NCBI GenBank assembly: GCA_002269645.1
Contig: NIVC01000038.1
Span: 806,001 to 870,000, forward strand
Direction of reading: 5' to 3'
Origin: Macrostomum lignano
Taxonomy: Eukaryota
Length of the DNA: 64,000 bases
Made by a program: the position numbers and the translations under genes. The notes below the pieces were generated by a model that saw only the letters and a list, made by a program, of their open reading frames with translations, was not told the origin of the DNA and did not search any database. Positions 38,071 to 63,992 of this stretch are shown here, in pieces (the first letter of the stretch is position 1; each line of letters begins with the position of its first letter).

Positions 38071-39276
38071 ATGACTCACGAAGCTCCCGCATCCCAGAAT
38101 GGCGTGTCGAACGACTTTCAATCTTTTTGTCAGTCAGCACTCGGTAAGATGCTTCATTTCTCAAGAAGGCGGCTGCTGCTGCTGCTGCCGCTCGCATGCT
38201 GCCTGCTTGCCGGTCTGTTCTACCTGCATCTGCTCAGCGTGCCGGCTCTGACCCCGAGACACCAAGTTGCACAGGCCTACACTACACACCTGCAGCTGGA
38301 CTTGCAGGCTCTCAGGCAGAATTTCCCAAAGCTTAGGGATGAGGTCATCAGGCAGCACAGCGGCCCGCATAGAAACCAGCTGGACCAGATGATGCTGAGC
38401 TACCTGCCGGTGTTCAATACCAGTGCGTGGGTGCTGCACAGCCCCCGCGACAGGCGCTTCACCATAGCGGAGGTCCAGGCTGTCGCCAAGTCCACCGTTC
38501 AGCCTGGCTTCCTGGTGCCAAACGTTGCCCACTTTGTGCTACCCTTCGGCGACACCCAGCTGCAGTTTCACCACATGGTCAGCATTCTCAGCTGCCTTCA
38601 CGTGATGAAGCCGCACCGCATGATGCTGTGGTACGCTCCAGGCAGGCTGCCTACCGGACAGTGGTGGGACCGAGTGAGGAAGAACCTCACCGAGGCGGAG
38701 TGGGATGAGAAAATTATCATGGCTCAGAGACCGGTTCCCACATCGGTGTACTCGGTGCCAGTTCGTGGCAGAGAGCACCAGTCGGATGTGATGAGGCTGG
38801 AGGCTGTGCTGGTATTTGGCGGCGTGTATCTAGACATCGACGTTCTCGTGCTGAAGCCGCTGGACCCGTTGCGGAAGTTTGCCTTCACAATCGGCAGAGA
38901 GACGAGCGATGGACTGTGCAACGGCATCTTCTTGTCCGCTCCAAACTGGACATTTCTGGCCATGTGGCACACCGCATATCAGGTGTTCAATGATGACGCG
39001 TGGAATGAGCACTCGGTACGTTTGCCGCACTTGATGCAGCGCGCGTTTCCAGATCTGTGCCACGTGGAGGAAGACAGTTTGAACCGTCCGAACTGGACTC
39101 CGGACGAGGTGGCCTGGATCTACGGGATCGGACAGCAGCACCGGTGGGACTGGAGGAAGAAAAACTACGCTGTACACCTGTTTGGTACATTCGAAGATGA
39201 GAACATGTCTAGCATAAGAAGCCTGAACTCCATGTACGGAGAAATGTGCCGCAATATTCTTTTCGGGAGCGGCTGA
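38071..39276 (+). CDS. Glycosyltransferase family 32 (alpha-1,4-glycosyltransferase, A4GALT/A4GNT-like), intronless
   Basis: Type II TM (RRRLLLLLPLACCLLAGLFYL), VPNVAHF, HQSDVMRLEAV, GGVYLDIDV (DxD motif), LCNGIF, W..HSV..P. Start may be 38071 or 38150. Confidence 0.92.
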   Translation: MTHEAPASQNGVSNDFQSFCQSALGKMLHFSRRRLLLLLPLACCLLAGLFYLHLLSVPALTPRHQVAQAYTTHLQLDLQALRQNFPKLRDEVIRQHSGPHRNQLDQMMLSYLPVFNTSAWVLHSPRDRRFTIAEVQAVAKSTVQPGFLVPNVAHFVLPFGDTQLQFHHMVSILSCLHVMKPHRMMLWYAPGRLPTGQWWDRVRKNLTEAEWDEKIIMAQRPVPTSVYSVPVRGREHQSDVMRLEAVLVFGGVYLDIDVLVLKPLDPLRKFAFTIGRETSDGLCNGIFLSAPNWTFLAMWHTAYQVFNDDAWNEHSVRLPHLMQRAFPDLCHVEEDSLNRPNWTPDEVAWIYGIGQQHRWDWRKKNYAVHLFGTFEDENMSSIRSLNSMYGEMCRNILFGSG

Positions 39277-40043: not shown

Positions 40044-40120
40044 TTCTGAGAGATTATAACTAAAATACAATTGTACAAGTAGATTAATTAATCATTCAGT
40101 GCAGATGAACAGCTAACAGT

Positions 40121-41346
40121 TGTAATAGGGTCGATCTTTTATTCTTACTAATAGTAGTTTTAAGCGGGTTTAATGAGCTATTTTTACTCAGCCAATCAGT
40201 AAATTTCCTTGTTTAAATCCCTTAATTATTTTGTTTTAACTAACTTCAGCCAATGGAGTTTAATAATTGTTATAATTTCGTAAGCTATTTTGTTATAATT
40301 AATTTCATCCAATCAAATTAAGTTTTATCCTCTATATAAACGGAACGATTGACCAAGAATAAAATTAACTTGCTCTTCCGCGAATTTTCGCGAGCTCGCT
40401 CTCAACCGGAGAAGAAGCGTTTTTGCCATCCAAACCAAAACGTGAGTTAAAACTTGCGAGTCTTAGTTCTTTGTAGGAATAGGGAGAAATCAGAGGTCGT
40501 GGAGACCCAGAACTAAGGATCTGAATAGGGAGAAATCAGAGGTCGTGGAGACCCAGAACTAGGGATCTGAATAGGGAGAAATCAGAGGTCGTGGAGACCC
40601 AGAACTAGGGATCTAAATAGGGAGAAATCAGAGGTCGTGGAGACCCAGAACTAAGGATCTGAATAGGGAGAAATCAGAGGTCGTGGAGACCCAGAACTAG
40701 GGATCTGAATAGGGAGAAATCAGAGGTCGTGGAGACCCAGAACTAGGGATCTGAATAGGGAGAAACCAGAGGTCGTGGAGACCCAGAACTAGGATCTAAA
40801 TAGGGAGAAATCAGAGGTCGTGGAGACCCAGAACTAGGATCTAAATAGGGAGAAATCAGAGGTCGTGGAGACCCAGAACTAGGATCTAAATAGGGGGAAA
40901 TCAGAGGTCGTGGAGACCCAAGACAGAGGTCTAAAATTAAGGAGAAATTTAAGGTCGTGCAGACTCTAAGGAAGCCGTACTGGCTAATAATAGGTATTAG
41001 GCGCTAGGAAATTAGGCATTAGAGGAGTGAATTAGCTACTGCTGGACACCCTTGATCCTCGGAAAACGCTAGACTTTCGGACTAAAATTAGGAAATTAGA
41101 CAGTGTCTTACCGCTCGGGCACTACACGCTATCACAAGGTTTCCAAGAAATCGTGTGAAATTAGAGAAGGGTCATAGTTCAGAGGCAGCCAATACTACTA
41201 GAAGTAGACAGCTTAGGGACAGGAACCAGAAAGTCTGTGAAAGGCTCAGTAGCTTTAAGGTGGAATTGCAGTTAGAACGAGTACGTCTGCGACAACTTGG
41301 TGACATCTAGTGGGATCTAGAAGAAGGAGGAAACAAATCTGTAACA
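40121..41346 (+). repeat. 5' LTR of Gypsy-1 (3 CCAAT boxes, TATA at ~40333, 46-bp tandem array)
   Basis: Direct repeat of 48908-50133 at a constant offset of 8787. Confidence 0.97.
40478..40925. repeat. 46-bp tandem repeat (~10 copies) inside the LTR; also at 49265-49712
   Basis: Unit aatagggagaaatcagaggtcgtggagacccagaactagggatctg. Confidence 0.95.
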
Positions 41347-41349
41347 ACT

Positions 41350-41360
41350 TGGTGGCAGCG
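41350..41360 (+). promoter_or_regulatory. Primer binding site, tRNA-Leu type
   Basis: TGGTGGCAGCG, 3 nt after the LTR end, is complementary to the ...CGCUGCCACCA 3' end of eukaryotic tRNA-Leu(AAG/TAG). Confidence 0.75.
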
Positions 41361-41406
41361 TTAAGGGATCAAGAAACCAGCGGAAAGCTAACTAGATCAG
41401 TGAAAA

Positions 41407-42351
41407 ATGGCAGGAATTAATGACGCATTAGCGCTACTAGCTGAAGAGCTTAGGAATCGTTTAGAAATAGGACCAGCAAGGCATGTGAGAATTCAGAAGT
41501 ACACGCCAAGCCAAGACATTAGGATCTGGTTGACAGCTTTTGATCAGAGGTGTGAATCAGAAGGAATCGAGGAGAATCATAGGAAAACTGAGCTATTAGC
41601 TAATCTAGACCTAGCAACAGCGTTCGCCGCTGTACAGCGACTTAATCTGCCAGAAGATCTAGGGTATGAAGAATTCAAGGAGCACTTGATCGAGAGATTT
41701 GGTAGGATAGGAAACGCGTCAGAGTTTAGGGAAGAGTTTAGAGGCAGAATGCAAGGAAGGAATGAGACGAAGGACGCTTATGCTGATGCGCTGATTGAGC
41801 TATCAGATAGAGCCTTCCCGAACATGAATGCAGAACAGCGAGAGGAAGAGATAGTTGAGCAGTTTATCAAAGGAGTTAGGATTCCGCCAGATACTAGGGA
41901 GAAGTTGATCTTTGCTCAGCCAGCGAATTTGCAGGAAGCTAGGCGAATGCTAAGGCGAATTGAAGCCGCATGGCAACTATCGCACAAAGGAGGTGTTAGG
42001 ATGATGAAAGAGGGAGAAGGAGAGCAAGAGAAGAAGCTCCAAGATTTAGTTCAGCAGCAGAAGAATGAGTTAGAGCAACAGAAAAAGCTGATTCAGGAGC
42101 TGATGGCGCACAAGCCACCACCTATGGCTAGACCGCAGCCATGCCCAGCTCAGATGCCGCGACAGAATTATCAGCAGCAACCGGCATTTCAGCCGAGAGT
42201 TTCGGCATATTATCAGCCTAGACCTAGGAGAGAGTTTCCGATTCGCTCTTATTCGCCGCAGCCAGGAAGGTGTGCAATTTGCCAGCAACCCGGCTCAATA
42301 AGGCCTGGTATAGGTCACCAGTGCCGCGTGAATCGCAAACAGGGAAACTAG
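41407..42351 (+). CDS. gag: Gag (314 aa) of Gypsy-1
   Basis: Capsid-like (IRIWLTAFDQRC, FRGRMQGRNET..AYADAL, IVEQFIKG), non-canonical CAICQQPG knuckle, ends QGN-stop. Confidence 0.92.
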   Translation: MAGINDALALLAEELRNRLEIGPARHVRIQKYTPSQDIRIWLTAFDQRCESEGIEENHRKTELLANLDLATAFAAVQRLNLPEDLGYEEFKEHLIERFGRIGNASEFREEFRGRMQGRNETKDAYADALIELSDRAFPNMNAEQREEEIVEQFIKGVRIPPDTREKLIFAQPANLQEARRMLRRIEAAWQLSHKGGVRMMKEGEGEQEKKLQDLVQQQKNELEQQKKLIQELMAHKPPPMARPQPCPAQMPRQNYQQQPAFQPRVSAYYQPRPRREFPIRSYSPQPGRCAICQQPGSIRPGIGHQCRVNRKQGN

Positions 42352-45300
42352 AATACAGAGGGTGGCATGAGAGGCCACGACCCTCTAGGAGAAATGAGTA
42401 CAAAATGAAGGCCTCTAATTGTAAATATAGTGTAGATAGTGAAGGTTGGCGAACTGTCCCAATGCGAAAAAGACACATAGGTGGTGTGCATGTAAATAAT
42501 GCGTTTGCACCAGCACCAATTTCCACTTATTCTGCGTCAGCACCTCATGCGTATGCACCAGCCGCATCATCATGTGTCAATCCTGCTTATGCTACTGAAA
42601 ATTTAGCACCAGTAGTAGAAAAAGAGTCCGAATCCGATTTTCGCCAACCAAAGCCTAAGAAAATAGTTAAGCAAAAGGTTTTTCCGAAACCAAAAGTTGA
42701 ATTAGTAAACCAGACAGGCTATGAAGCAATAGTAGTAGGCAGTATCGATAATCAAGAAGTAGACTTTCTAATAGACACAGGCGCTCAAAATAATTTTCTA
42801 AGTAGATCAGTTTGGTCAAAAGTATTCGAGCCGAGTCAGATTAGAGAAACAAGTAGGAGAGTTTCCACATTTGATGGAACTACAGTGAAATTAGAAGGAG
42901 AAGCGAGTACTTTAGTGCAGTTCGGAGATTTAGAATTAGAAATAGAATTCCTACTCTGCAGCCACGATTGTGACAACATACTAGGCATGGAATTCTTTAA
43001 AAATCGCTGTGAAAGCATTCAATTAGCAAAAGGCATGTTAATTTTAAAAGAGGGGACTTGTATTCCCATGCAGTATACTCATTTGCCAGTAAAAGTTTGC
43101 CGAGTATATACCCAGGAGAGGGCAGTAGTTCCGCCTAATAGCGCACTGCGAATCCCAGTGAGATTAGCCAAAAATTCAGAAGCCAATTATGGCACGCCAA
43201 TGACTATTGAGACTATTGGAAATAGTATTAGAACTAAGACAGAGACAGTAGAAATGAATCCGACTTTAGTTACTATGCGCGATGGCGTAGCCATAGTAGA
43301 AGTAGTGAATCAAAGCACGGTAGAAGTGAAATTGCCGAAATCAACCTTAGTAGGTTTAGCTAAGCCAATCAGGGCTAGAGAGCTCACTTACATGAATAAT
43401 GAAGTAGATCAAACCGTGCCGTCAGATCAGCCAATCACCGGACGTGTCAATCAAACGCAATCTACAAGTGAAACTTGGATTAGCGAAATAGATATTAGTG
43501 AAGATTTGACAGCCGAACAGAGAGATAGGGTGATTCAGCTCGTAAAAGAGCATAGAGAGGCCTTTTCTCAACATGATCTAGATATGGGCTTAACATCATT
43601 AGTCACGCATGAGATCTCGCTAAGGGATGAGACACCTGTTAGGATTCCGACTAGAAGGATTCCCCCTCATCTGCAGAAACAGGTAGATGCTCAGCTAGAT
43701 GACATGTTAGCTAAGAACTTAATTAGGCCATGCTATTCGACTTATTCAACACCTCTAGTGATCGTACCAAAGAAAGATGGTACTATTCGAATAGTTAGTG
43801 AATTTAGAGTGCTGAATTCACGAGTGAACTACTTTCCGTATCCGCTGCCAAATATTCAGGAGACATTTTCAAACTTAACAGGCAGTCAGTATTTTAGTAG
43901 CCTTGACCTGAATTCTGGTTATTGGCAAGTTCCGATAAAAGAGGAACACAAGTTTATGACTGCATTTTCAACATTAACAAGAGGTCAGTTTGAGTATCAA
44001 GTTATGGCTCAGGGCTTATCTAATGCCCCAGGTACTTTTCAAAGGCTTATGAATCTAGTGTTAGCAGGCATTCAGCATAAATATGCCATGTCATACATAG
44101 ATGATATAGTGACCTATTCTAAGCAGTTTGAAGATCATTTAGAACACCTTAGAGAGGTATTTAAAAGACTAATTAGTGCAGGACTAAAACTAAGAGCTAA
44201 AAAGTGCAACCTATTTCATAGCGAACTAAAATATTTAGGCCATGTAATCGGAAGAGAAGGAATTAGGACTGATGAAGCTAAGATAGAAGCCATTAGGAGC
44301 TGGCCCAAAGCCAAAGGATGTAAAAGAGCTAAGAAGTTTCTTAGGATTATGCAATTATTATAGTCGCTTTGTTAAGAATTATGCTGAGGCTGCACATCCG
44401 TTATTTCAACTAACTAGGAAAGGAGTGCAGAACTTTCAGGCAAAGTGGACTAGAGCTCATGATGAAGCATTTGAAGAGCTTAAGAAAAGAATGATGTCAA
44501 CAGAAGTGTTAGCCTATCCAGAGTTTGTAGACGATGAGAATGTTAGAATGGTCTTAGACACTGATGCTAGTGATGGACGCATAGGGGCCTGCCTAGGCCA
44601 AATCCAGTCAGATGGCATCGAGAGGCCTATAGCATATTTCAGTCGGGCTATGAAAGAAACAGAGAAGCGCTATCCAATAACTAGAAAAGAGTTGCTAGCG
44701 TTAGTAGATGCAATGAAGCATTTTAGATTTTATCTGATAGGAAAGCGATTTTTAGCGCGCACAGATCATAAGGCGATTTTATGGTTGTTAAGGCAAACAG
44801 AGGCCCAAGGGATTCTAGGACGTTGGGTGGAACGCTTAAATGAATTTCAATTCGATATTAAGCATAGAAGCGGTGCCAAACATTCCAACGCGGACAGTTT
44901 GTCCAGAAGACCGGCAGAAGTAGCTGAGGCAACCGAAATTGAGCAAGGCGTGAAAGCCTATGAAAGCGAATTTGAGCAAGGCGTGAAAGCCTATGACAGT
45001 GAGATTAAGCAAGGCGTGAAAGCCTATGAAAGTGAAATTAAGCAAGGCGTGAAAGCCTGTGAAAGTGAAAAGGGCGTGAAGCCGAGAGACAGCGTGAATG
45101 CTGCAGTAAGCGAGACAGTAGAAGAAGGAGAAAGAGAGATGCAGACTTCGCATCCCGAGGACTCAGAGTCTAGGATCAAGTCATTAGTCATTTCAGGAGT
45201 AGAAGGTGCGAAGGTAGAAGATGTGTCAGCACCGAGTTCAAGCTTAACGCAACAGAACAGAGACACTGAACCTGATCACAGAGAGAGTGAGATACCTAAA

Positions 45301-47217
45301 GTTACAAAATTACTAACTGACTACTTGCAAGTACCGTTGAAGAAGGAGCAAATTGTTAAAGCTCAGAGGGAAGACACAGCAATCTGCACACTAATAGAGT
45401 GGAAGCAAGAAAATCTGTCAGTCCCGCCAATTCAGAAAAATGAGTCAGTCGAACTGAAGCAGTTAAGACGAAAATATGAGAAAATGAAGTTAGAGAGAAA
45501 TCTGTTGACTATAGAAGAAGAAAGAATCTGGAAAATAATTTTGCCTAAATCTTTAGATAAGCTAGTGTTTAGCGATCTGCATGATAGCCCGCTAGCAGGA
45601 CATTTAGGTAGAGACAAAACAGTTCAGCGAGTTAGAGAGAGATTTTGGAGACCAGGCTTAGTAGCCGCAGTAGAAAAGCATGTGGCAGAATGCATCCCAT
45701 GCTTAGAGAGCAAAAGAGGCCATAAAGTGCAAGCTCCGATTCAGTCATTTCCAATTAGTGAGCCATTTCACCGATTACACATAGATGTGATAGGGCCAAT
45801 TTCAAAAATTAGCAAAAGAGGCCATCAGTATGTGTTGACAATAGTAGACAGCAATACTCGCTATCCGTTTGCATTTCCAATGCGCAATCAAAAAGCTGAC
45901 ACAATTATTAAGCTATTGCAAGAAAGAGTATTTAGTGAATATGGCCAATGCCAATGGATTCACACAGATAATGGCAAGGCATTCACTAGCAAACAATTTA
46001 GTGCATTCTGTGAGTTGTACAATGTGAAGCATACTTTCACAACTCCATATCACGCACAGAGCAATGGTTTAGTTGAGAGATTTAACAAGCAGGTCAAATC
46101 AATAGTCACATGCCTGATTGAGAAAGATCATAGCAATTGGGATCTATTAATTCCAGCAGCCTTAGTCGCAGTTAGAACTAGCGTTAATCAGACTACAGGC
46201 TATTCGCCGCATTTCTTATTGTTTGGCAGAGAGGCAGTTTTGCCCATAGACAGCGAACTTAGAGAGCCAAACCAATACGCTAACTATCCGACCTATGTAG
46301 CCGAACATGCCGAGAGATTAGAGAGTGCTAGAAAAATAGTTAAGGAAAAGTTTGAGAAAGTGCATGACAAAAGGCAGACAGACGCCGAGAATCAGAAAAA
46401 GCCAAAGGTTATTGAAGTAGGAAGCTTAGTGCTAATTAATAATCCACAACTTAACATTGACGAATCTAATAAGTTTCATAGGAAAAAGCGAGCCGCCTTT
46501 CGAGTGCTTAAGCAAATCTCAGAAGTAGTTTTTAAGATTCAGAAAGAAGAAGAAGGCGAGTTAGTAGGCAACAAGTTATTAGTACATAGGGATAACATGG
46601 CCCCAGTGCCAAACTCTGTGAAAGAGCCAATAGATAAGGGAAGCCAGGAGAGCGCTGAGACAGTAGAAATTATTAATAAGGAGAGCCAGACGAAAGCTAA
46701 GCATTCAAATAAAAGAAATCAGCAGGAGTTAGGACAATCAAGCAAGGGAAGCCACGCCAGAAAGAATAGACTAGAGGAACCAGTTATCGAATTAGAAGAA
46801 GAAAGCTCTGATGAGGAACAGCCGAAGTGGTTTTGCAAGATTCGTGAAAATGAACAATCGGTACATGAGAATGAATCAGAGTTGGAAGCGGAGTCAGAAG
46901 CTGAGATACAAAATAATATGCAACATGAGAGCCTAGTGGAAGAGGAGATGGAGAGGTCAGAGCGAGAGGGAGGAGAAGTAACGATCGATAACAGACGCGA
47001 AACAGAACAGGGGGAAGGAAAAGGCGCGCATGCGGGCCACACTGAGAATGGGGGTACGCCAGACAAAGAGGGTAATAAAACTAAACCATATAACACACGC
47101 AGCCGTACTAGGCCACCAGTCAAATGCCAGTGTTATCTAAAAAAGCTTGCTACTGTATGGAGACTATTAGAAAAATTAAACTTTTACCCAGCCAATAGGA
47201 ATTCAGTTGCGGTTTAA
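42342..47217 (+). CDS. pol: Pol polyprotein of Gypsy-1 (PR-RT-RNaseH-IN), entered by a -1 frameshift; one extra C at 44304-44306
   Basis: FLIDTGA (PR), FSSLDLNSGYWQ and YIDD (RT), LDTDASD (RH), HDSPLAGHLG..CIPC, IDVIGP, TDNG, NGLVER (IN). Removing one C restores WPKPKDVKELRSFLGLCNYY. Confidence 0.95.
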
Positions 47218-47390
47218 ATCAAGTGTTTATTGCGCAAGAGCCAATAAGATAATTTACAAAGATTAAAACAAGTTAGTTTGTTTAAATTAACTCAGCGGGG
47301 GGGAAGTCAATTTATATAAAAGGAGACACTTAATCAGGAAGGAGTCAGGATGGACTCTAAATCTAACAGTCAAAATTAAACTAGCTAGCT

Positions 47391-48455
47391 ATGGACGAAA
47401 TAGATCTGTTCGCAGACTTTGAAGATTTACTAGGAGATTTTACTATCCCAGTAGGGCAAGAGGCGGTAGTCGCCCAGCAGCCGCAGCAGCAAGAGGCGGT
47501 AGTCGCCCAGCAGCCGCAGCAGCAAGAGGCGGTAGTCGCCCAGCAGCCGCAGCAGCAAGAGGCGGTGGTCGCCCAGCAGCCGAAGCAGCAAGAGGCGGTA
47601 GTCGCCCAGCAGCCGCAGCAGCAAGAGGCGGTGGTCGCCCAGCAGCCGCAGCAGCAGCAGGCAGTAGTCACCCAGCAGTCAGAAACGATAGTTATTGAGG
47701 ATCAAGAAGCAGAGGCAGCCATCGACCAAGGAAGAAGCACCCGACTAAAGTCTGTGGTAATACGGCCGGCAGCACAGAAGGTGCCTGTGCCGCATAATCC
47801 GCAGGCTCGAGCGTCATTACTACGTGATCAAGCCAACAGACCAGTTGAAATAAGCGATAACATTCGCAAGCGACAGCCGCCAGGAGCGAACGCGACTCAG
47901 TTTATTACCATCAAACAGCCTAGACTCATTCTGCCGCGACAGCAGTCGAGACCGCAGCCAACAGTCATGTCATCGCAAAGTACGTCATCGGCGCAGCCTC
48001 AGGCCCCGGCCATTGGAAGGCAGGCAGCCTCAGCAGTGACACTAAGAAGCCACCGATCGCAGAACCCGATGGCCTTGGGGGCTAATTTCGCGGCCGTGCT
48101 GCAGGAAGTTCCGACTCATCTTCAAGAACCATACAAACAGGCCATCATGAAGATCAAGTCTTACCTGCTCAGCGTGGCTTTGCTCAGAATAGATGGGAGA
48201 GGCTTCTTGCCTCAAACCAAAGAGCCAGAAACGGCAATCGAGGAACTTCAGGCCAACTTTTCGCACGAGCAGTGTATAGCGGCCTGGCGAAAGGCTGTTA
48301 CGTACGCTCTACATGATCTCACCCAATCGGCTTGGTTTTACCAGCAGGCACAGCTGCGGTTCGAGGTCTGCTGGATGGCCGACAAGTTGGGATGGCCAGT
48401 CAAGAACAGCTTGCCATCAGAATTCGGTATGAATATAGGTAATAGGCGTAATTAA
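47391..48455 (+). CDS. Gypsy-1 accessory ORF3 (354 aa), unknown function, not env-like
   Basis: Intact ORF between pol and the 3' LTR: acidic N-terminus, about 6 x QEAVVAQQPQ (30-bp repeat), P/Q-rich linker and a ~130-aa apparently globular helical C-terminus; no signal peptide or TM. Confidence 0.85.
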   Translation: MDEIDLFADFEDLLGDFTIPVGQEAVVAQQPQQQEAVVAQQPQQQEAVVAQQPQQQEAVVAQQPKQQEAVVAQQPQQQEAVVAQQPQQQQAVVTQQSETIVIEDQEAEAAIDQGRSTRLKSVVIRPAAQKVPVPHNPQARASLLRDQANRPVEISDNIRKRQPPGANATQFITIKQPRLILPRQQSRPQPTVMSSQSTSSAQPQAPAIGRQAASAVTLRSHRSQNPMALGANFAAVLQEVPTHLQEPYKQAIMKIKSYLLSVALLRIDGRGFLPQTKEPETAIEELQANFSHEQCIAAWRKAVTYALHDLTQSAWFYQQAQLRFEVCWMADKLGWPVKNSLPSEFGMNIGNRRN

Positions 48456-48474
48456 CATTTTGCTGACACTCACG

Positions 48475-48725
48475 AATTGCTTAACCTGTACTTATTCATT
48501 TACTTAACCTGTGCTTATTCATTTGCTTAACCTGTGCTTATTCATTTACTTAACCTGTGCTTATTCATTTACTTAACCTGTGCTTATTCATTTGCTTAAC
48601 CTGTGCTTATTCATTTACTTAACCTGTGCTTATTCATTTACTTAACCTGTGCTTATTCATTTACTTAACCTGTGCTTATTCATTTACTTAACCTGTGCTT
48701 ATTCATTTGCTTAACCTGTACTTAT
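48475..48725. repeat. 23-bp tandem repeat (cttaacctgtgcttattcattta) in the Gypsy-1 3' UTR
   Basis: About 10 units. Confidence 0.95.
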
Positions 48726-48907
48726 CCATATTGTTTAATCGGTGCTATGATGCGATTTTCTTTTACTATTTAGCTCACTAATACTATTCACTTGCATAAT
48801 TTGTGAGTATCTGTATTGTTTTCGTATGCTACTTATAGTATTGTTCATGTAATTTGTATTTTTTCACACATATAATTAATTCAAAAATCCAATTAAGGGA
48901 AGCCAGT

Positions 48908-50133
48908 TGTAATAGGGTCGATCTTTTATTCTTACTAATAGTAGTTTTAAGCGGGTTTAATGAGCTATTTTTACTCAGCCAATCAGTAAATTTCCTTGTT
49001 TAAATCCCTTAATTATTTTGTTTTAACTAACTTCAGCCAATGGAGTTTAATAATTGTTATAATTTCGTAAGCTATTTTGTTATAATTAATTTCATCCAAT
49101 CAAATTAAGTTTTATCCTCTATATAAACGGAACGATTGACCAAGAATAAAATTAACTTGCTCTTCCGCGAATTTTCGCGAGCTCGCTCTCAACCGGAGAA
49201 GAAGCGTTTTTGCCATCCAAACCAAAACGTGAGTTAAAACTTGCGAGTCTTAGTTCTTTGTAGGAATAGGGAGAAATCAGAGGTCGTGGAGACCCAGAAC
49301 TAAGGATCTGAATAGGGAGAAATCAGAGGTCGTGGAGACCCAGAACTAGGGATCTGAATAGGGAGAAATCAGAGGTCGTGGAGACCCAGAACTAGGGATC
49401 TAAATAGGGAGAAATCAGAGGTCGTGGAGACCCAGAACTAAGGATCTGAATAGGGAGAAATCAGAGGTCGTGGAGACCCAGAACTAGGGATCTGAATAGG
49501 GAGAAATCAGAGGTCGTGGAGACCCAGAACTAGGGATCTGAATAGGGAGAAACCAGAGGTCGTGGAGACCCAGAACTAGGATCTAAATAGGGAGAAATCA
49601 GAGGTCGTGGAGACCCAGAACTAGGATCTAAATAGGGAGAAATCAGAGGTCGTGGAGACCCAGAACTAGGATCTAAATAGGGGGAAATCAGAGGTCGTGG
49701 AGACCCAAGACAGAGGTCTAAAATTAAGGAGAAATTTAAGGTCGTGCAGACTCTAAGGAAGCCGTACTGGCTAATAATAGGTATTAGGCGCTAGGAAATT
49801 AGGCATTAGAGGAGTGAATTAGCTACTGCTGGACACCCTTGATCCTCGGAAAACGCTAGACTTTCGGACTAAAATTAGGAAATTAGACAGTGTCTTACCG
49901 CTCGGGCACTACACGCTATCACAAGGTTTCCAAGAAATCGTGTGAAATTAGAGAAGGGTCATAGTTCAGAGGCAGCCAATACTACTAGAAGTAGACAGCT
50001 TAGGGACAGGAACCAGAAAGTCTGTGAAAGGCTCAGTAGCTTTAAGGTGGAATTGCAGTTAGAACGAGTACGTCTGCGACAACTTGGTGACATCTAGTGG
50101 GATCTAGAAGAAGGAGGAAACAAATCTGTAACA
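48908..50133 (+). repeat. 3' LTR of Gypsy-1
   Basis: Preceded by a purine tract (aagggaag); identical by eye to the 5' LTR; followed by the TSD. Confidence 0.97.
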
Positions 50134-51872
50134 CAGTCTAACATGACGGGTGAATAATTTTGGCTTTAATAATGAATAATGGGTGAATATAATGTCGGGT
50201 TGCTGCGCAAGTGTCTGGTTGAAAAAATACCTGTTGACAAAATAATGCGGCCGGTTGACGAAATGCCGGTTGACCAAATATCCTAGAACCGTTAATAGTA
50301 TTACCGCAAGCTAAAGTAGCTCCTTATGTGGTTTAGAGCTGCAACTTTTTGCGGTATTTCTTGTACTTTTGCGTTTTGCAATAGCTGTACGCTTATTTAG
50401 GCTAAACCGATGCTAAACCCCATATTTATATTGCTTTTATGCACATTCCTCAATTATTGATCGCACCACTTTCACTCTTTATTGATCGCCTCACCCCATA
50501 TTACGCTCACTCGTGTATGCCTTGCTTTCTCTGAACTCATAGAAATATCGAACCATACCCAAATATATCGCTCAAATACTTTTCCGTTTCCATCGTTTCT
50601 ATCATAGTAGCATTATAGTTTGTTTTTTATCTGTAGTTATATTAGAGAAAACTATGTTTAATTGCTAAAGTAATTTTGTTTTAAATGAATTTACTAAATT
50701 AGCTAAAAGGTAATTATGTATTTGTTATATTATAATAATTTTTTTAAGAAACGAACTTTCCAGAAAGTTCCTTATAAATTCGAAAAAAAATTAAATTATA
50801 CAGTTCGTGCGCGGGCACTTACGTCACATGTAATAACCCATGTTGTTGGACTCACATCTAAGGCTAAGTAAAGGCATTCAGAGTCCATACGCAGCCAGGT
50901 TTTTAATAATACAATACTCATTTATCTAAATGTGTTCCGTGTCGCTAATCACTATATATCACAATTCACAGTGCTTCTGTTTTTATTGCATTGCATTGTG
51001 ATTTAATTGATCTCTTTTTTGACAATTTTTAAGCCGACTAATTTTCTATAGTCAATATATTGGTTTTTAGTCAATATTTTATTATACGTTTTTATTTCAA
51101 AAGTAGTATATTTTGTCTAATTTTTACTCTTTTCTGTCTCAGTTCCTGTTTTTTAAAACAATAAATAGGCTAGAGATAGGGATAGGCCTAGAATAGAACT
51201 TTTGCACACAAATGAAAGTATTCCAAAACTACAAGAGAAAAAGTTTTATTTTATTTTTCCACTTTTCAGCAAACAAATAATTAGTATTCTGCAAATTTAT
51301 GCATACCTTCAGGCTTCAGCTTCAGTTACTATTTATATCTTTAAGAATCAAAACTGTCTATATAGTATATTTGTCAATGTACAATTTTGATTGCTATAGA
51401 CTCCCAAACCAAACTCCTCAACTAAATTACACCAAATTTTGTTCTTACCCTAAACTCACTACAAAGATAGTCTTAGGCTAGGCCTACCTTAAATTTTCTA
51501 AAATCTAAGTCTAGTTACTCAAACAATAAAAAAAGCAGTTTTTTTCACTAAATCCTACATAGTGCCATTCTACTTTTACTAATCCTCTTAAATTTGAGAT
51601 AGACAATCTTCAACTATGTTATGTTGAAAATTGTTATATTATTTTATTGGCTAAGATGGCTATGTTAGGCCTAGCTATAATAGTTTGGTAAAAAATTTGA
51701 ACCATTTCCCTCTATATAGGCAAACTCTATCAATTTAATAGTAAGTAGCAATTTGCAATCCAAGGCAATCTAGCATGGTTTGTAAAAGCAAAATATTTTT
51801 GAAAATGCAATACAAACCTAATTTAATCATAACAAAATTTTAATATTAAGTTTCATCTAAAGGTAACTGTAA

Positions 51873-53463: not shown

Positions 53464-53883
53464 CTCTCCCCGTCCAAATTAAATTGCAGCAGCGGAACAA
53501 TGATTCAATTTTATTTGAAAACAAAAAACCGGCTCTAATAAGGCCACTGCATAGTAAGTATTTATTAGCTACAAAAGAAAAGTAAAATTTATTGCGCGCC
53601 AGTCAAAAAGATGGAAAACAAGGCCACACGAATTGCATACGGTATTGCGGATTAACCAGTGATAGTTTTTAGAGATTAGATTGATTAGCTGAGAGATGCA
53701 TTAAATTTTGAGATTAATTTGAAATGGAGATGAATTCCTGATTATTGCGTGTCAGCCTAATTGTAAAGATGTAAATGTTGTCATGTAATTTTAATTTTTG
53801 TTAATAACGAATGAATTTTTCAAAGTCCGTTGGCACGTCGGCGGTTTGACCTAGGAAGAAAAGGGCCTTTAAGATGGCCAATT

Positions 53884-54167
53884 CTAGCGTAGTTGGATGC
53901 GGCGGTTGAGTTGGTAGGGCGGCGATGGTGCGGCGGGCCACTTCCGAGATAGCCTGATTGTGGTCAGGTGGCTCACCTGTGTTGAGGCGTCAGCGTGCTG
54001 CGGCCTGGCCTTGATAGCGGCATTGATCGCTTCCACTAGCTCCGTTTTTGAAAACAACCTAGGCGGCGACGGGGCAGGCGACGGATGGCGAAAACGCGGT
54101 CTCGGCGGAGTGGGCGGCGTGGGGATATCATCTAAATTGATGGTATCTGGCTGCGGCGGCGGCGTCA
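53884..54167 (-). CDS. C-terminal half of the Gypsy-2 accessory ORF
   Basis: Joins in frame to 59256-58620 once the Helitron is removed (..YLGV|MTPPPQ..). Confidence 0.8.
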
Positions 54168-58475: not shown

Positions 58476-58619
58476 TGGGATGTTTTCTTTTTGCATTGTG
58501 CTTCATTTGAGCAGTTTTTCTGTTGTCTTTGTGAAGACTCTATTTGGCTGTCTTTTTGTTACTTGTAGAGAACAGAAGTTCTATCCAGATGTCCCCCATC
58601 GGGGGGCGAAGATTGCTAG

Positions 58620-59256
58620 TCACACCTAAATATTGAGCCGGAGGTGGCGAGTGCGGTTGCGGCGGAGTGCGCAGGATATCCATCTGCGGATCGAATAGAG
58701 CCGGTGGTTGGGCGTCTGGGGCGTCCTGTTCTCTTGGAGACAGCAGGTCCTGCAGCGGCGGCAGCAAGTCCTCGCCAGGCTCTTCTTGCAAGGAGCTGAC
58801 CGGACTCCCGAACAGCTGGAGCACCATGTCATCTTGGCGCTGGTGATCGGGCAAGCTCTGCGCCGGAGGCTCTGGTAGCGGCTGCGCCGGTGGCGATCCT
58901 GGTCGGGATGGCGAGATCAGTTTGTCAGCTGCCGGCAGCCGGGCGTTAGCTTGGATTGCGCGCGGCGGGTCTAGCCGGAGGCGGATGGCGGCTGCTTGCT
59001 CCCTGGCAATCGCGAGTGGATCGCCTTGCTGAGTTGGCTGCAACGGCGCCAGCCTGCGCACTTCCACCCGGGCCACTTGACGTGGCCGCTCGTCCCAGCG
59101 ACTTCGGCGCCTGCGGGCCGGGTCGTGCGCTGGTGTTGGAATGGTTTGAATACGGCCGGCAGATAAAGTGGGCCGCGTCCGCTTACGCCCGCTGGCCGGC
59201 GAGGGCGTCCTGGACGGCTCTCGGTCGCGCTTCTTCCGGTTTTCCTTGCCGGTCAT
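58620..59256 (-). CDS. N-terminal part of the Gypsy-2 accessory ORF (basic, then Pro/acidic-rich); ~306 aa when reconstructed
   Basis: ATG 173 nt after the pol stop; RKKRDR, RKRTR and RRRRSRWDE motifs; no signal peptide or TM. Confidence 0.8.
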
Positions 59257-59429: not shown

Positions 59430-62400
59430 TTACAAATTGGCCGACAAATCATGACTATTATTTGGCAAATTGGCCGACAAAACATGACTATTACATTGAT
59501 TATTCCTATCAGAGTCTAAGTTAATCCTATCGCTATTTCTACTTTCAGGTCGCCTCTGCGTTTCAACTGTAGGAGCGGTTGGAGCTTCGCAAGAATCATA
59601 CGGCAGTGACTCAAGCTCAACTCTGTTCTCCATAACTTCAGGTTCGTGGATGCAGACTTCAGTTGGACGCGCGCTTGGCTGAGCGGCTGATCGGAGTCGC
59701 CAGCGATAGGCGGGTCTCGTGTCCAGGTCGTCATCTTCTTCGTCGGAGTCCTCAGAGATGGCGGGGAGTGTCGCAGCTCCGGCGTCAGCCTGTCGAACTC
59801 GGCGATGCTTCTTCGGTTCAGCTGGCCCTTCGAGATCTGCAATTGGATAATCTGAAGTGGGTACAAGGAGGAGGTTCCGGCGATGAACTACCATTTCGTC
59901 CGGTCGTTCTCGAGGGTGTCGAACCTTCCGTCGAATCTTGTAGACGACTTCTCCTTTGCCTTCCACCACTTCATACAACGATCTCCTTGGCCTGTGGAAA
60001 TTCGCTGCTTCGTCTTCGTGTAGGACCGGATTGTTCAAGAAGACGAGATCTCCCGGCTGTAGCTTCTTAGCTGCTGGTCGGTTCTCGTAGTGCTCGTCTC
60101 GCGCTTGCTGATGCAGGCCTAGCCGTTCCTTTGCGAGGTCCGTGGCGTGCTTGAGGCGTTGCTGAAACTCTGCGACGTAATCAGGCAGGTTGGAATACTC
60201 CGGGAGTAGCTTTAATGAATTGTCTAGAGGCATCCTGTATTCTCGGCCATAGACTAAGAAGTAAGGCGTATAGCCTGTGACTGGATGAACGCTGGATCGA
60301 AGAGCAATCATGCACGCTGGCAGAAATGTGTCCCAATCGCGATGATCGTGCTCGAGGAGACATGTCAGAATGCTCTTGATCTGCTTGTTCAGATTTTCTA
60401 CCAGTCCGTTGGATGCTGGGTTGTACGGCGTCGTTGTCGTGTGCCTGATCGCGTAGAGATCACAGAACTTCTTGAAGGCGTTTCCTGTGAAGTTCGTGCC
60501 TTGATCCGTGTGAATCCAAGCTGAAACTCCGTATTCTGGAATAAATCGGTCCTGTAACAATCGGATAACGGTCTTAGCTTTCTGATTTCTCATCGGATAA
60601 GCTATCGGAAACTTTGATGTCGCACAGCAGAGTGTCAGGATGTACCGATGACCTCCTTTGGACGGTTGCGCAATCGGTCCGATCACATCCATGTGAAGTC
60701 TTCCTAAAACTTCGCAGACTGGAAAACTCTGCACTGGCACTTGCTGTTTTCGTCGTGACTTGCTCTCTAGGCAGGTTCGGCATTTGCTGACGTAGGTCTC
60801 AGTGGCTCGGACTAGACCTGTTCGCCAGAATCTTTCGCGCACACGTTGGGCGGTCTTTCGCTGTCCTTGGTGTCCTGCTAAAGGCGAATTGTGGAGCTCG
60901 TTAAAAACTTCGTCGTCGTCGAGTGCTTCTGGTAAGACAATCTTCGGTGGAGTGTCTTTTTCCTTCATGTTGATCATGAGTAGATCTCGCTCGAGGAATA
61001 GTAACTCGTAGTATCCTAGCAGATTCCGTTGCTCTCTGCTAAGTCGTAACGCTGGTTTCGGTTGATTCTCCTTGATCAACTTGTAAACGTAGCCAATAGC
61101 TGGGTCATCCTGTTGAGCTTTGATGAGCTTGTCGCGCGGCAACGGCGGCTTCAGATGATCCGTAAGCAATGCTCGGCAGCGCGGCAGACTTTGAGAAGTT
61201 GCGAGCTGGGGAGATGCTTCAGCTGTACGTACTCTGTTCTCCTCGTATGCAGACTTCGTCACCTCTGCATAGGAACGCGTCAGTTTCGGCGTAGGACGAA
61301 GGCGCTTCATGGCGCAAGACATATCGTCCACGCGTTGATAATGGGTGGTCGGCTGCAGGCTCATGGAAGAGCAACGAGACGGCTCGACCTGCTGAGTCTG
61401 TCGGCTCATGGAAGAGCAGCGGGACTCCTCAGCGGTAAATTTTTGACCGAGATCTGAGCAGTGGCGCTCGACTGGGAGGGCTGCTGGAGCGGTGGCCTCC
61501 GGATCTTCGTCCAAGTCAGTCTCCAAACTCTGTAGGTAGACCTGATGGCTGTCGTTGGAGAGGGCTGAGGGTACAGTGGCCTCTTGAACTTCATCCAGAT
61601 TGGTCTCCTTGAAGTGACGGCGAGCGTGGGTGGCTCGGCAGAGGGCTGCTGGTGCGGTGGCCTCTGTGTCTTCATCCAAGCTTACTGTCTCCTGGCGTTG
61701 GCGCGAGCAGTGGAGAACTCGGCAGAGGGCTGCAGGTGCGGTGGCCTCTGGTTCGTTGTCCAAGTCGGTCTCTGCCTCTGGATCGCGATTGTGGGTCTTG
61801 ATTGAGAGGGCTGCTGGTGCGGTGGCCTCTGAATCGATGCCCGGATCAATTTCCTTAATGCGGCGACACTCACGCTGAGTGGTGTCTCCTGTCTCCTCGC
61901 GGTGGCAAGCCAGGACAGCGTCGACGTCTTGGAGTACTCCGTAATCGCATTCTAACGGAGGCGTGTCCGGGCGTCTTGATAGCGCGTCGGCGTTGGTGTG
62001 GTCAGTACCCTTGCGATGGGAGATGGTGAACTGAAATTCGCAGATCCTCTGGACCCATCGACCTAGAATCCCTGTAGATTCAGTCTGACGTAACAGCCAG
62101 AGCAAGGCCTTATGGTCACTTCTTACTTCAAACTTCTTTCCTATTAAGTATTCTCGAAAGTGTCGCATGGCATCGACGATAGCCAGTAGCTCCCGCTTGG
62201 TGACCGTGTAGCGAACTTCCGGGTCACGGAGCTTGCGACTGAAAAAGGCGATCGGTCGTTCTATTCTATCGGATTGCAGTTGTCCTAGACATGCACCGAT
62301 TCGGGTGTCGGATGCGTCGGTATCCAGGATGAACTTGACCTTCGGATCCTCATTGAACTCTGGGAGGGCGAGTACTTCGGTTGAGCATAGCTTGCTCTTC

Positions 62401-63992
62401 AGAGTCTCAAAGGCAGTCTGATGCTGCTGCGTCCAATGACGCTGGAATCCTTGCAGGTCCTTGCGTGTCAATGCGTGTAACGGGGCCGCAATGCCCGAGT
62501 AATCCTCGACAAACTTCTTGTAGTAATTGGCGAGACCAAGAAAGCTTCGTAGTTGACGAACAGTCCGAGGCGTTGGCCAACTGCGTATCTGCTCAATCTT
62601 GTCTTCGCTTGTCCGTAGGCCTTCCGGCGTAATCACGTGGCCTAGATAGTGGAGCTCCTTCTTGAATAAATGGCATTTCTTCGGCTTTAGCTTCAAGTTG
62701 GCGGCTATGATTCGGTTTAGGACTTGTCGTAGACGGTCTAAGTGATCTTCGAACGTCACTGCGTGTACAACGATATCGTCCATGTAACCAAGAGCGGCCT
62801 GCGGTGCTAGTCCTTCTAGCAGTTGGTTGATACAACGCTGGAACGATCCGGGGCTGTCGGTGAGTCCCATTGGTAGCACCTTGAAGCAGAATTGTCCACG
62901 ATCGAGCACAGAGAAGGCGGTGATGTCCTGGTCTTCCTCTCGGAGAGGGATCTGGTAGAAGCCTTGTACCAGGTCGAGGCTTGAGTACCACTGCGCTCCT
63001 TTGAGTTTGGCAAAAGTTTCCTGAATGTGCGGGATCGGGTACGGATGCTTCAGCGTCACATCGTTGATCGCTCTGAAGTCGTGCACAATGCGAATCGTCT
63101 TGTCCTTCTTTGGCACTAGGATCATCGGCGAATTGTAACTGGAGTACGTTGGCCGAATGATGCCTTTCTTCAGCATATCGTCGAGCATCTGATCCAGTTG
63201 CGGTCGTAGATGCGGAGGTATCCGGCGAGGAGGAATCGCGATTGGCGTCGAGTCTGTGAGCACAATCTCATGAGTTACCAGGTGTATCAATCCGTGGTCC
63301 AGCGGAGTTAGGGAAAATGCCTTCTCGCATTCCTTGAGTACTTCCTGAACCTGGTGCTTCTGGTGGCTGTTCAGCTGGTCTCCGACGTCGACCTCGTTGA
63401 CCCAACTGTCAGTCGTTTCTTCAGTCGTTATCAGTTGACGGACTTCTGGCTCATTCGACTCGCTGAAGTACTCGAGGTCCTGGGTCTTGAGTGGCGTGGC
63501 TACTCCCATTAGCATGTTGCGACGCAAGTGACCCTCCGTGTCTGATGGGTTGAGTACTTCCATCACTCCTCGACCTTCTATCATCGTGTGCAGGACCGGG
63601 GCTGCGTCTAACTGGTGATGCTTCGCTCGCAGTCCTGATTTGAGCGGTTCGATTATCATCGGTGAACCGTAGTTCTGCTGATGACCTTCGGCTAGTTTAA
63701 TGGCGACGAGGCAGGAACATTGAGGCGGCAGAGTGCATTTTTCAGCGACGTACACTCGGCAGGCCTTCAGTTCTCTCCTTGAATAGCGTACCGGAAGTCG
63801 AGTGCCTTGTCGGAATGTGAGCATTCCTTGCTGGAAGTCCAGTCCTTGGCAGTGACTCCGCATGAAATCGATTCCTAAAAGATTTTCACAGTCTCCTTCG
63901 GCGACGAAGAATTCGGTTTCCGCGACATAGTCCCCGAATTCAATTGATAGGATAACCTTAGCGGCGAGACTTAACTCGGTCCCGTCGTACAT
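59430..63992 (-). CDS. pol: Pol polyprotein of Gypsy-2 (PR C-half, RT, RNaseH, IN); uninterrupted for at least 1520 aa, start outside the window
   Basis: LLGIDF (PR), YSSLDLVQGFYQ and YMDD (RT), LDTDASD (RH), HNSPLAGHQG..CRTC, MDVIGP, TDQG, NGLVE (IN). Confidence 0.97.
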   Translation of the reverse strand: MYDGTELSLAAKVILSIEFGDYVAETEFFVAEGDCENLLGIDFMRSHCQGLDFQQGMLTFRQGTRLPVRYSRRELKACRVYVAEKCTLPPQCSCLVAIKLAEGHQQNYGSPMIIEPLKSGLRAKHHQLDAAPVLHTMIEGRGVMEVLNPSDTEGHLRRNMLMGVATPLKTQDLEYFSESNEPEVRQLITTEETTDSWVNEVDVGDQLNSHQKHQVQEVLKECEKAFSLTPLDHGLIHLVTHEIVLTDSTPIAIPPRRIPPHLRPQLDQMLDDMLKKGIIRPTYSSYNSPMILVPKKDKTIRIVHDFRAINDVTLKHPYPIPHIQETFAKLKGAQWYSSLDLVQGFYQIPLREEDQDITAFSVLDRGQFCFKVLPMGLTDSPGSFQRCINQLLEGLAPQAALGYMDDIVVHAVTFEDHLDRLRQVLNRIIAANLKLKPKKCHLFKKELHYLGHVITPEGLRTSEDKIEQIRSWPTPRTVRQLRSFLGLANYYKKFVEDYSGIAAPLHALTRKDLQGFQRHWTQQHQTAFETLKSKLCSTEVLALPEFNEDPKVKFILDTDASDTRIGACLGQLQSDRIERPIAFFSRKLRDPEVRYTVTKRELLAIVDAMRHFREYLIGKKFEVRSDHKALLWLLRQTESTGILGRWVQRICEFQFTISHRKGTDHTNADALSRRPDTPPLECDYGVLQDVDAVLACHREETGDTTQRECRRIKEIDPGIDSEATAPAALSIKTHNRDPEAETDLDNEPEATAPAALCRVLHCSRQRQETVSLDEDTEATAPAALCRATHARRHFKETNLDEVQEATVPSALSNDSHQVYLQSLETDLDEDPEATAPAALPVERHCSDLGQKFTAEESRCSSMSRQTQQVEPSRCSSMSLQPTTHYQRVDDMSCAMKRLRPTPKLTRSYAEVTKSAYEENRVRTAEASPQLATSQSLPRCRALLTDHLKPPLPRDKLIKAQQDDPAIGYVYKLIKENQPKPALRLSREQRNLLGYYELLFLERDLLMINMKEKDTPPKIVLPEALDDDEVFNELHNSPLAGHQGQRKTAQRVRERFWRTGLVRATETYVSKCRTCLESKSRRKQQVPVQSFPVCEVLGRLHMDVIGPIAQPSKGGHRYILTLCCATSKFPIAYPMRNQKAKTVIRLLQDRFIPEYGVSAWIHTDQGTNFTGNAFKKFCDLYAIRHTTTTPYNPASNGLVENLNKQIKSILTCLLEHDHRDWDTFLPACMIALRSSVHPVTGYTPYFLVYGREYRMPLDNSLKLLPEYSNLPDYVAEFQQRLKHATDLAKERLGLHQQARDEHYENRPAAKKLQPGDLVFLNNPVLHEDEAANFHRPRRSLYEVVEGKGEVVYKIRRKVRHPRERPDEMVVHRRNLLLVPTSDYPIADLEGPAEPKKHRRVRQADAGAATLPAISEDSDEEDDDLDTRPAYRWRLRSAAQPSARPTEVCIHEPEVMENRVELESLPYDSCEAPTAPTVETQRRPESRNSDRINLDSDRNNQCNSHVLSANLPNNSHDLSANL

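What the first reader, a model, noticed from the sequence alone, without database searches (positions are those of the whole stretch)
47391..48455. Non-env third ORF in a young Gypsy element
An intact 354-aa ORF sits in the env position but has no signal peptide, TM or furin/fusion features. It has an acidic-hydrophobic N-terminus (MDEIDLFADFEDLLGDF, activation-domain-like), a 10-aa Q-rich repeat, and a ~130-aa C-terminal domain (..QCIAAWRKAVTYALHDLTQSAWF..CWMADKLGWP) that I do not recognise. Candidate transactivator or silencing suppressor.
Basis: partly seen in the sequence, partly recalled or inferred. Interest (0 to 1): 0.75.

Follow-up and report, generated by a model that had tools for sequence, protein, structure and literature searches.

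The report
Swappable regulator-like gene in Gypsy retrotransposons
A group of jumping genes in one animal genome carries, where an envelope gene would sit, an unrelated and previously unrecognised protein that looks like a switch for the element's own transcription and is traded between elements as a cassette.

Summary
The ORF is real (354 aa; the repeat is 11 aa, not 10) and is not env. It is the third gene of a 10-kb Gypsy element with identical LTRs, and one member of a large family in genome G000 (143 matches, 23-100% identity). Of 60 loci examined, 52 carry it downstream of pol or gag. All 31 full-length proteins scored have an acidic first 30 residues, a basic low-complexity middle and a C-terminal domain under purifying selection (pN/pS 0.20). 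AlphaFold folds that domain as five helices; no family, structure or other-organism match was found. A TATA box lies 70-110 nt before the ATG in 14 of 29 types (2.9 expected), suggesting an internal promoter. The gene is swapped between near-identical pol backbones (one breakpoint at the TATA box) and is kept by 13 mostly young pol-less elements. Best reading: a nuclear activator of the element's own transcription, working like foamy-virus Tas without being related to it (0.5). Rivals are an anti-silencing/host-factor adaptor and a Rev-like exporter. No function, binding or transcript was shown.

The parts
40117..40120 (+). left 4-bp target-site duplication
   Evidence: same 4 bases at 50134-50137
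40121..41346 (+). 5' LTR (TG...CA), TATA box near 40333-40339, 46-bp x 9.7 array at 40477-40920, short hairpin near 41101-41122, one extra LTR-end/PBS-like unit near its 3' end
41350..41367 (+). primer-binding site (tRNA-Leu-like; tRNA identity recalled, not tested)
41407..42351 (+). gag, 314 aa
   Evidence: weak Retrotrans_gag and Ty3_capsid hits below cut-off
42228..44363 (+). pol, first open frame: protease and RT
44287..47217 (+). pol, second open frame: RNase H, integrase; pol is broken between the two frames in this copy
47190..47321 (+). candidate internal promoter: CCAAT at 47192 and 47241, TATA box 47313-47321; also the point where similarity to L038 ends
47391..48455 (+). ORF3, 354 aa, non-env accessory gene
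47391..47480 (+). acidic-hydrophobic N-terminus (aa 1-30), candidate activation or docking helix
   Evidence: net -7 to -11 in 31 of 31 proteins; pN/pS 0.17 over 10 pairs
47456..47678 (+). 33-bp (11-aa) Q-rich tandem repeat, family-specific spacer
47790..47879 (+). conserved middle motif (aa 134-163), predicted helix at aa 137-149
   Evidence: pLDDT 79-86
48078..48425 (+). conserved five-helix C-terminal domain (about aa 230-345); D268, P274, L286, W328, W335 invariant in 31 of 31 aligned
48480..48729 (+). 23-bp x 10.9 array in the 3' UTR
48895..48907 (+). polypurine tract
   Evidence: similar tracts before the LTR in relatives
48908..50133 (+). 3' LTR, identical to 5' LTR
50134..50137 (+). 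right 4-bp target-site duplication

Best explanation
ORF3 is an element-encoded nuclear regulator that raises the element's own transcription, in the manner of foamy-virus Tas. Shown: the gene is selected, soluble, built as acidic helix + flexible spacers + basic middle motif + folded five-helix domain, preceded in many families by a TATA box, exchanged between backbones as a unit with the adjacent 3' UTR and often U3, and retained by pol-less elements. Inferred: (1) an internal promoter makes a separate ORF3 mRNA; (2) the middle motif and C-terminal domain tether the protein to the element's promoters, directly or through a host DNA-binding factor; (3) the acidic helix recruits coactivators; (4) the benefit falls mostly on elements with matching promoters, which would explain why pol-less elements keep the gene and why many alleles coexist.
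For: N-terminal 30 aa net -7 to -11, middle +5 to +28, last 120 aa +1 to +9, and no transmembrane stretch (max 1.11) in 31 of 31 full-length proteins. Acidic-hydrophobic helix pattern in 21 of 31 (loose pattern, no control); acidic activation domains of this make-up are established knowledge (recalled). Purifying selection on N-terminus (pN/pS 0.17) and C-domain (0.20), weaker in the middle (0.36), 10 pairs. TATAWA at -130..-50 in 14 of 29 types vs 2.9 by shuffle; 8 of 13 vs 1.4 in the batch fetched after the pattern was first seen; strict splice-acceptor pattern 0 of 29. Window and L038 align continuously up to 47321, the TATA box, then fall to 48-59% over ORF3. 13 of 60 loci are elements with a short gag and ORF3 but no pol, LTR identity 93.5-100%; 5 of these 13 have a C-domain 97-100% identical to that of a pol-bearing element. 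Foamy internal promoter + Tas circuit: PMC7390438 passages.
Against: No known DNA-binding fold or motif; no conserved Cys/His set. The window's own C-domain is only +1 and has non-basic residues at 3 of the 4 positions that are basic in 81-94% of the family. 15 of 29 types lack a TATAWA in the window, including nearly the whole L046-L062 clade; the types are related, so 14 of 29 overstates independence. CCAAT is as frequent in pol (1.08 per 330 nt) as upstream of ORF3. No long element-specific motif is shared by internal promoter and U3: own U3 ranked in the top 3 for 8 of 16 and below 7th for the other 8, with AT-rich words. ORF3 and U3 are not locked together: L046 and L060 share U3 (96-100%) with ORF3 at 62-78%, while L046 and L049 have similar proteins and U3 near 60%.
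Confidence: 0.5

Rival explanations
1. Counter-defence adaptor: the acidic leucine-rich helix docks on a host protein (chromatin or piRNA-pathway factor, or an E3 ligase) and the C-domain picks the target, relieving silencing, like plant VANC proteins or retroviral Bet/Vif. The many alleles reflect an arms race with the host.
For: 34 clusters at 90% identity among 38 C-domains compared on far less diverged pol: in one clade RT dS is 0.11-0.27 while ORF3 synonymous sites are near saturation. Family-specific tandem arrays in LTRs and 3' UTRs recall VANC targets (PMC5735166 abstract). Retention by pol-less elements fits a sequence-specific version.
Against: Pairs show purifying, not diversifying, selection. 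A general suppressor acting in trans should be dispensable in pol-less elements, yet they keep it. Array cores are shared across quite different ORF3 types and several families have no array.
Confidence: 0.27
2. Rev/Rec-like RNA factor: the N-terminal leucine helix is a nuclear export signal and the Arg-rich parts bind a structure in the genomic RNA, promoting export or translation.
For: An export-signal-like spacing occurs in the first 40 residues of 20 of 31 proteins, cleanly in the L046-L060 clade (loose pattern, no control). A U5 hairpin is conserved across otherwise unalignable LTRs.
Against: The surrounding residues are strongly acidic in 31 of 31; 11 of 31 lack the pattern; no splice-acceptor pattern before ORF3 (0 of 29), so the usual need for Rev is not evident; the hairpin pattern was not found in the L054-type families that keep ORF3.
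Confidence: 0.12
3. Particle-associated or spread protein that replaces env (cell-to-cell transfer or capsid cofactor).
For: Env position; pol-less elements keep exactly a short gag and ORF3, both under purifying selection. Env-independent spread by sORF2 is known (PMC11952523 abstract).
Against: No transmembrane or signal segment in 31 of 31; sORF2 is a short transmembrane protein.
Confidence: 0.07
4. A captured host-gene fragment or a chance open frame carried along passively.
For: 8 of 60 loci showed neither gag nor pol within about 7.6 kb upstream and were not all traced.
Against: pN/pS 0.17-0.36 with near-saturated synonymous sites; conserved N-terminus, middle motifs and C-terminal end across 17-100% identity; no host family matched.
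Confidence: 0.04

Closest known systems
Foamy virus Tas (Bel1) and its internal promoter (PMC7390438, passages)
   Same: Accessory gene between pol/env and 3' LTR, own internal promoter (candidate here), acidic activation-type segment, soluble.
   Different: Host element is a Ty3/Gypsy retrotransposon without env; acidic segment is N-terminal; no sequence or fold link found; activation not shown.
Oikopleura Tor3b/4b internal promoter Penv (PMC4402516, passages)
   Same: Gypsy-type element whose third gene is transcribed from a promoter in or after pol; precedent for the promoter layout.
   Different: Tor ORF3 is a transmembrane Env glycoprotein; this one has no membrane segment.
Bdelloid rotifer LTR ORF3s: DEDDy exonuclease, GDSL esterase, TM and coiled-coil types (PMC5408684, abstract and passages)
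   Same: Non-env, family-specific, modular third ORFs in an invertebrate.
   Different: Those have recognisable enzyme or TM domains and are described as spliced; this domain matched no family.
Retand TRP28 additional ORFs (PMC11963269, passages)
   Same: Conserved extra ORF in the pol-3'LTR interval, proposed DNA-binding regulator, tandem arrays nearby, non-autonomous relatives.
   Different: Plant, antisense, Pfam PF04195 (not matched); this ORF is sense.
Arabidopsis VANC anti-silencing proteins (PMC5735166, abstract)
   Same: Rapidly diversifying TE-encoded accessory protein with family-specific action as a possible model.
   Different: DNA transposons of plants; no homology; targets here unknown.

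Membership tests
Ty3/Gypsy LTR retrotransposon (carrier element) | LTRs with TG...CA ends, TSD, PBS, PPT | tested here: met
Ty3/Gypsy LTR retrotransposon (carrier element) | pol order PR-RT-RH-INT | tested here: met
Ty3/Gypsy LTR retrotransposon (carrier element) | named clade by RT phylogeny with reference elements | not tested
   no reference RT set at hand; trees hold only G000 copies
Retroviral/errantiviral Env | signal peptide and C-terminal transmembrane anchor | tested here: not met
   max 19-residue hydropathy 1.02 (window), at most 1.11 in 31 of 31; acidic N-termini
Retroviral/errantiviral Env | furin site, fusion peptide, conserved cysteines | tested here: not met
   none seen in translation; no invariant Cys in alignments
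sORF2/FAST-like fusogen | short single-pass membrane protein | tested here: not met
   279-468 aa, no TM
Foamy virus Tas/Bel1 | sequence homology to Tas | tested here: not met
   no Pfam hit near cut-off for 23 C-domains or 27 longer pieces, none for the whole ORF
Foamy virus Tas/Bel1 | shared fold | tested here: inconclusive
   no significant structural match to anything
Foamy virus Tas/Bel1 | expressed from an internal promoter | tested here: inconclusive
   TATA enrichment 14 of 29 vs 2.9; no start site mapped
Foamy virus Tas/Bel1 | binds and activates LTR and internal promoter | not testable with these tools
   needs reporter and binding assays
VANC-type anti-silencing protein | sequence-specific loss of repressive marks on own family | not testable with these tools
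   arrays do not clearly track ORF3 type
DEDDy/GDSL/TRP28 additional ORFs | Pfam domain of those families | tested here: not met

The most novel reading that the evidence does not exclude
An animal Gypsy clade independently evolved a foamy-virus-like two-promoter circuit: an internal promoter drives a sequence-selective transactivator with a new helical domain, and dozens of activator alleles are exchanged as cassettes across a shared pool of gag-pol backbones and pol-less parasites, so that regulatory identity is inherited separately from the replication machinery.
Probability: 0.3. Interest if true: 0.85.

Novelty: new variant of a known kind. Interest (0 to 1): 0.68.

Why it matters
Non-env third ORFs are known in Gypsy elements, but this is a large, selected family with an unassigned domain and a complex-retrovirus-like layout. 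If it is a self-activator, it shows that Tat/Tas-style feedback arose in Metaviridae, and gives a natural panel of more than 30 alleles and their promoters for testing how activator-promoter specificity evolves. If it is a counter-defence factor, it would be a rare animal retrotransposon-encoded suppressor and a probe of the host's silencing. Either way the cassette exchange and the short-gag + ORF3 pol-less elements mean RT-based classification misses the most variable functional part of these elements.

Tried and rejected
So 'restricted to this host' is not established: close relatives of the host may simply be missing. Pfam, NCBIfam, PDB sequence: nothing significant. Structure: best Z 7.2 (rmsd 3.4, 95 aligned) and 7.5 (rmsd 3.5, 97 aligned), no Foldseek E<=0.001; this neither names nor excludes a fold, and the middle motif was barely tested. 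ESM Atlas: unnamed, mostly fungal clusters at 0.90-0.93 for the window domain were not recovered among named clusters with a second member (best 0.83); not accepted. Expression: no RNA holder listed; contigs of three runs only guessed to be RNA cover parts of ORF3 and show no joint into it; uninformative. Homology to the neighbouring element's third ORF: hhalign probability 0.9%, score 15.9, below the best of 60 block shuffles (18.0); rejected. Promoter-U3 shared motif and array-allele matching: inconclusive. Earlier scan notes: three look-ups returned nothing. Literature: ten searches listed no paper describing this ORF; subscription papers are not covered.

Full report
Observation. The stretch 47391-48455(+) is one open frame of 354 codons. 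It follows pol and precedes the polypurine tract of an element at 40121-50133 with 100% identical 1.23-kb LTRs and a 4-bp target duplication. Pfam places protease, RT, RNase H and integrase in Gypsy order and gives no family for ORF3.

A family, not a one-off. The last 130 aa found 143 matches in G000 (150 scored of 234 candidates, 23-100% identity); a diverged member found 150 of 150 scored, many new. I fetched 60 loci of 10 kb, chosen to span the identity range and favouring long open frames, so proportions are not genome-wide. Of the 60, 29 have gag, RT, RNase H and integrase upstream on the same strand, 10 part of pol, 13 only a gag-like piece and 8 neither. 38 C-domains fall into 34 clusters at 90% identity.

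Architecture. In 31 of 31 full-length proteins scored (279-468 aa) the first 30 residues carry net charge -7 to -11, the middle +5 to +28, the last 120 residues +1 to +9, and no 19-residue window exceeds hydropathy 1.11. Between them lie unrelated P/Q/A/E-rich spacers and two short conserved motifs. Five residues are invariant in 31 C-domains. AlphaFold gives a five-helix domain (mean pLDDT 84) and, in a longer model, a confident helix at aa 137-149 in an otherwise disordered region. No sequence family or structure matched significantly (see Tried and rejected).

Selection. dN/dS of the C-domain against three relatives is 0.20-0.23 (one very close pair elsewhere, L044-L045, gave 1.23 on 5 changes, and many distant pairs were saturated). 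Over 10 non-overlapping pairs, uncorrected pN/pS is 0.17 for the first 25 codons, 0.36 for the middle and 0.20 for the last 120. The acidic N-terminus is thus as constrained as the folded domain.

Candidate internal promoter. A TATA box sits 78 nt before the ATG (47313-47321), with two CCAAT boxes upstream. TATAWA falls at -130..-50 in 14 of 29 types against 2.9 expected from shuffles; in the 13 types analysed after the pattern was first noticed (12 of them fetched later), 8 against 1.4. A strict splice-acceptor pattern was found in 0 of 29 (1.6 expected, so this says little). Against: 15 types lack the motif, the types are related, and CCAAT is no more frequent here than in pol. Internal promoters for a third gene have precedent in Tor elements (PMC4402516, passages) and foamy viruses (PMC7390438, passages).

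Cassette exchange. L038 is 96-100% identical to the window element through pol in most 200-nt bins (two bins 74%), and the alignment ends at 47321, the TATA box; ORF3 is then 48-59% identical. L038's own ORF3 has stops in the C-domain. L047 and L050 are 84-98% alike upstream and 86-94% downstream but 66-82% within ORF3. In one clade of 12 copies RT is nearly a star while the ORF3 tree has deep, supported branches. U3 often but not always travels with ORF3.

Pol-less carriers. 13 loci carry LTRs (93.5-100% identical over 365-1100 aligned bases; 12 of 13 at least 98.6%), a gag-like piece and ORF3 but no pol; 12 span about 5-6.5 kb and one is longer with an unrelated insert. In the 10 from which it was extracted, the short gag is 150-197 aa with pN/pS near 0.2-0.3 in 4 pairs; 5 of 13 share a 97-100% identical C-domain with a pol-bearing element. 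Elements that shed pol keep ORF3, which suggests a benefit that cannot simply be borrowed from any helper.

Mechanism. The polarity (acidic helix, flexible spacers, basic motif, folded domain), the promoter-like sequence and the position match a viral transactivator, so I commit to a nuclear self-activator at 0.5. Shown steps: selection, architecture, absence of membrane features, exchange, retention. Inferred steps: separate mRNA, nuclear location, promoter tethering, coactivator recruitment, specificity. Weak points: the window's C-domain is barely basic and lacks three of the four basic residues common in the family; no element-specific motif links internal promoter and U3. A counter-defence adaptor (0.27) explains the allele diversity equally well; a Rev-like factor (0.12) explains the export-signal-like spacing in 20 of 31 N-termini.

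Comparison and novelty. Non-env third ORFs are known in bdelloid LTR elements (PMC5408684, abstract and passages) and plant Retand elements (PMC11963269, passages); env-free spread by sORF2 (PMC11952523, abstract) and VANC anti-silencing (PMC5735166, abstract) are functional analogues; flatworm CsRn1-clade elements are reported with env-like third ORFs (PMC2582038, passages). This protein belongs to none of these by the tests run. A recent paper on LTR elements of the flatworm I suspected as host has no occurrence of 'ORF' in its main text and none of ORF3, extra ORF, additional ORF or transactivator in 5 supplementary files (PMC12801592, passages and term search); an earlier classification paper it cites was not seen and may mention the ORF. 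Ten searches listed no description. Verdict: new variant of a known kind; real and well supported as a gene family, function inferred; interest 0.68.

Noticed in passing
window 41290-41346; L047, L049, L056, L062, L064, L100 (3' LTR ends): The U5 end of these LTRs holds one to several degenerate copies of an 'LTR end + primer-binding site' unit, up to four near-identical ones in L056; possibly relics of primer-site shifts or decoys for tRNA fragments.
   Followed up: partly
window 41101-41122 and 50 kb-side copy; L038-L066: A short hairpin in U5 is conserved across families whose LTRs otherwise do not align (pattern found in 24 of 61 downstream regions); candidate packaging or dimerisation signal.
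   Followed up: partly
L054-L056, L085, L086, L088, L090, L092, L093, L097, L100-L102: Young pol-less elements with a conserved shortened gag (about 190 aa, keeps the N-terminal part and the Cys/His knuckle region) plus ORF3; the short gag is itself under purifying selection.
   Followed up: partly
window 59430-63992(-), 58540-59256(-), about 53800-54080(-): A second Gypsy family has a different non-env third ORF (about 375 aa in L104, L105, L109, L111: basic N-terminus, proline-rich middle, helical C-terminus; 41 matches). In the window it is split by a 4.4-kb insertion rich in a 23-bp satellite. Not shown homologous to ORF3.
   Followed up: partly
LTR arrays of L054, L056, L085, L087-L089, L091-L093, L101: Tandem arrays in R/U5 share a short core that is complementary to the start of the primer-binding site, suggesting leader RNA pairing rather than protein targets.
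   Followed up: no
window 47350-47379: A nine-codon upstream ORF lies in the ORF3 leader of this copy; no upstream ATG within 60 nt in the other 28 types checked.
   Followed up: partly
window 28142-30478(-) and 38071-39276(+): Intronless kindlin-like gene (778 aa) and a DXD glycosyltransferase ORF (401 aa) about 0.85 kb upstream of the insertion.
   Followed up: no
L092: A 701-aa ORF of another kind is inserted inside a pol-less element.
   Followed up: no
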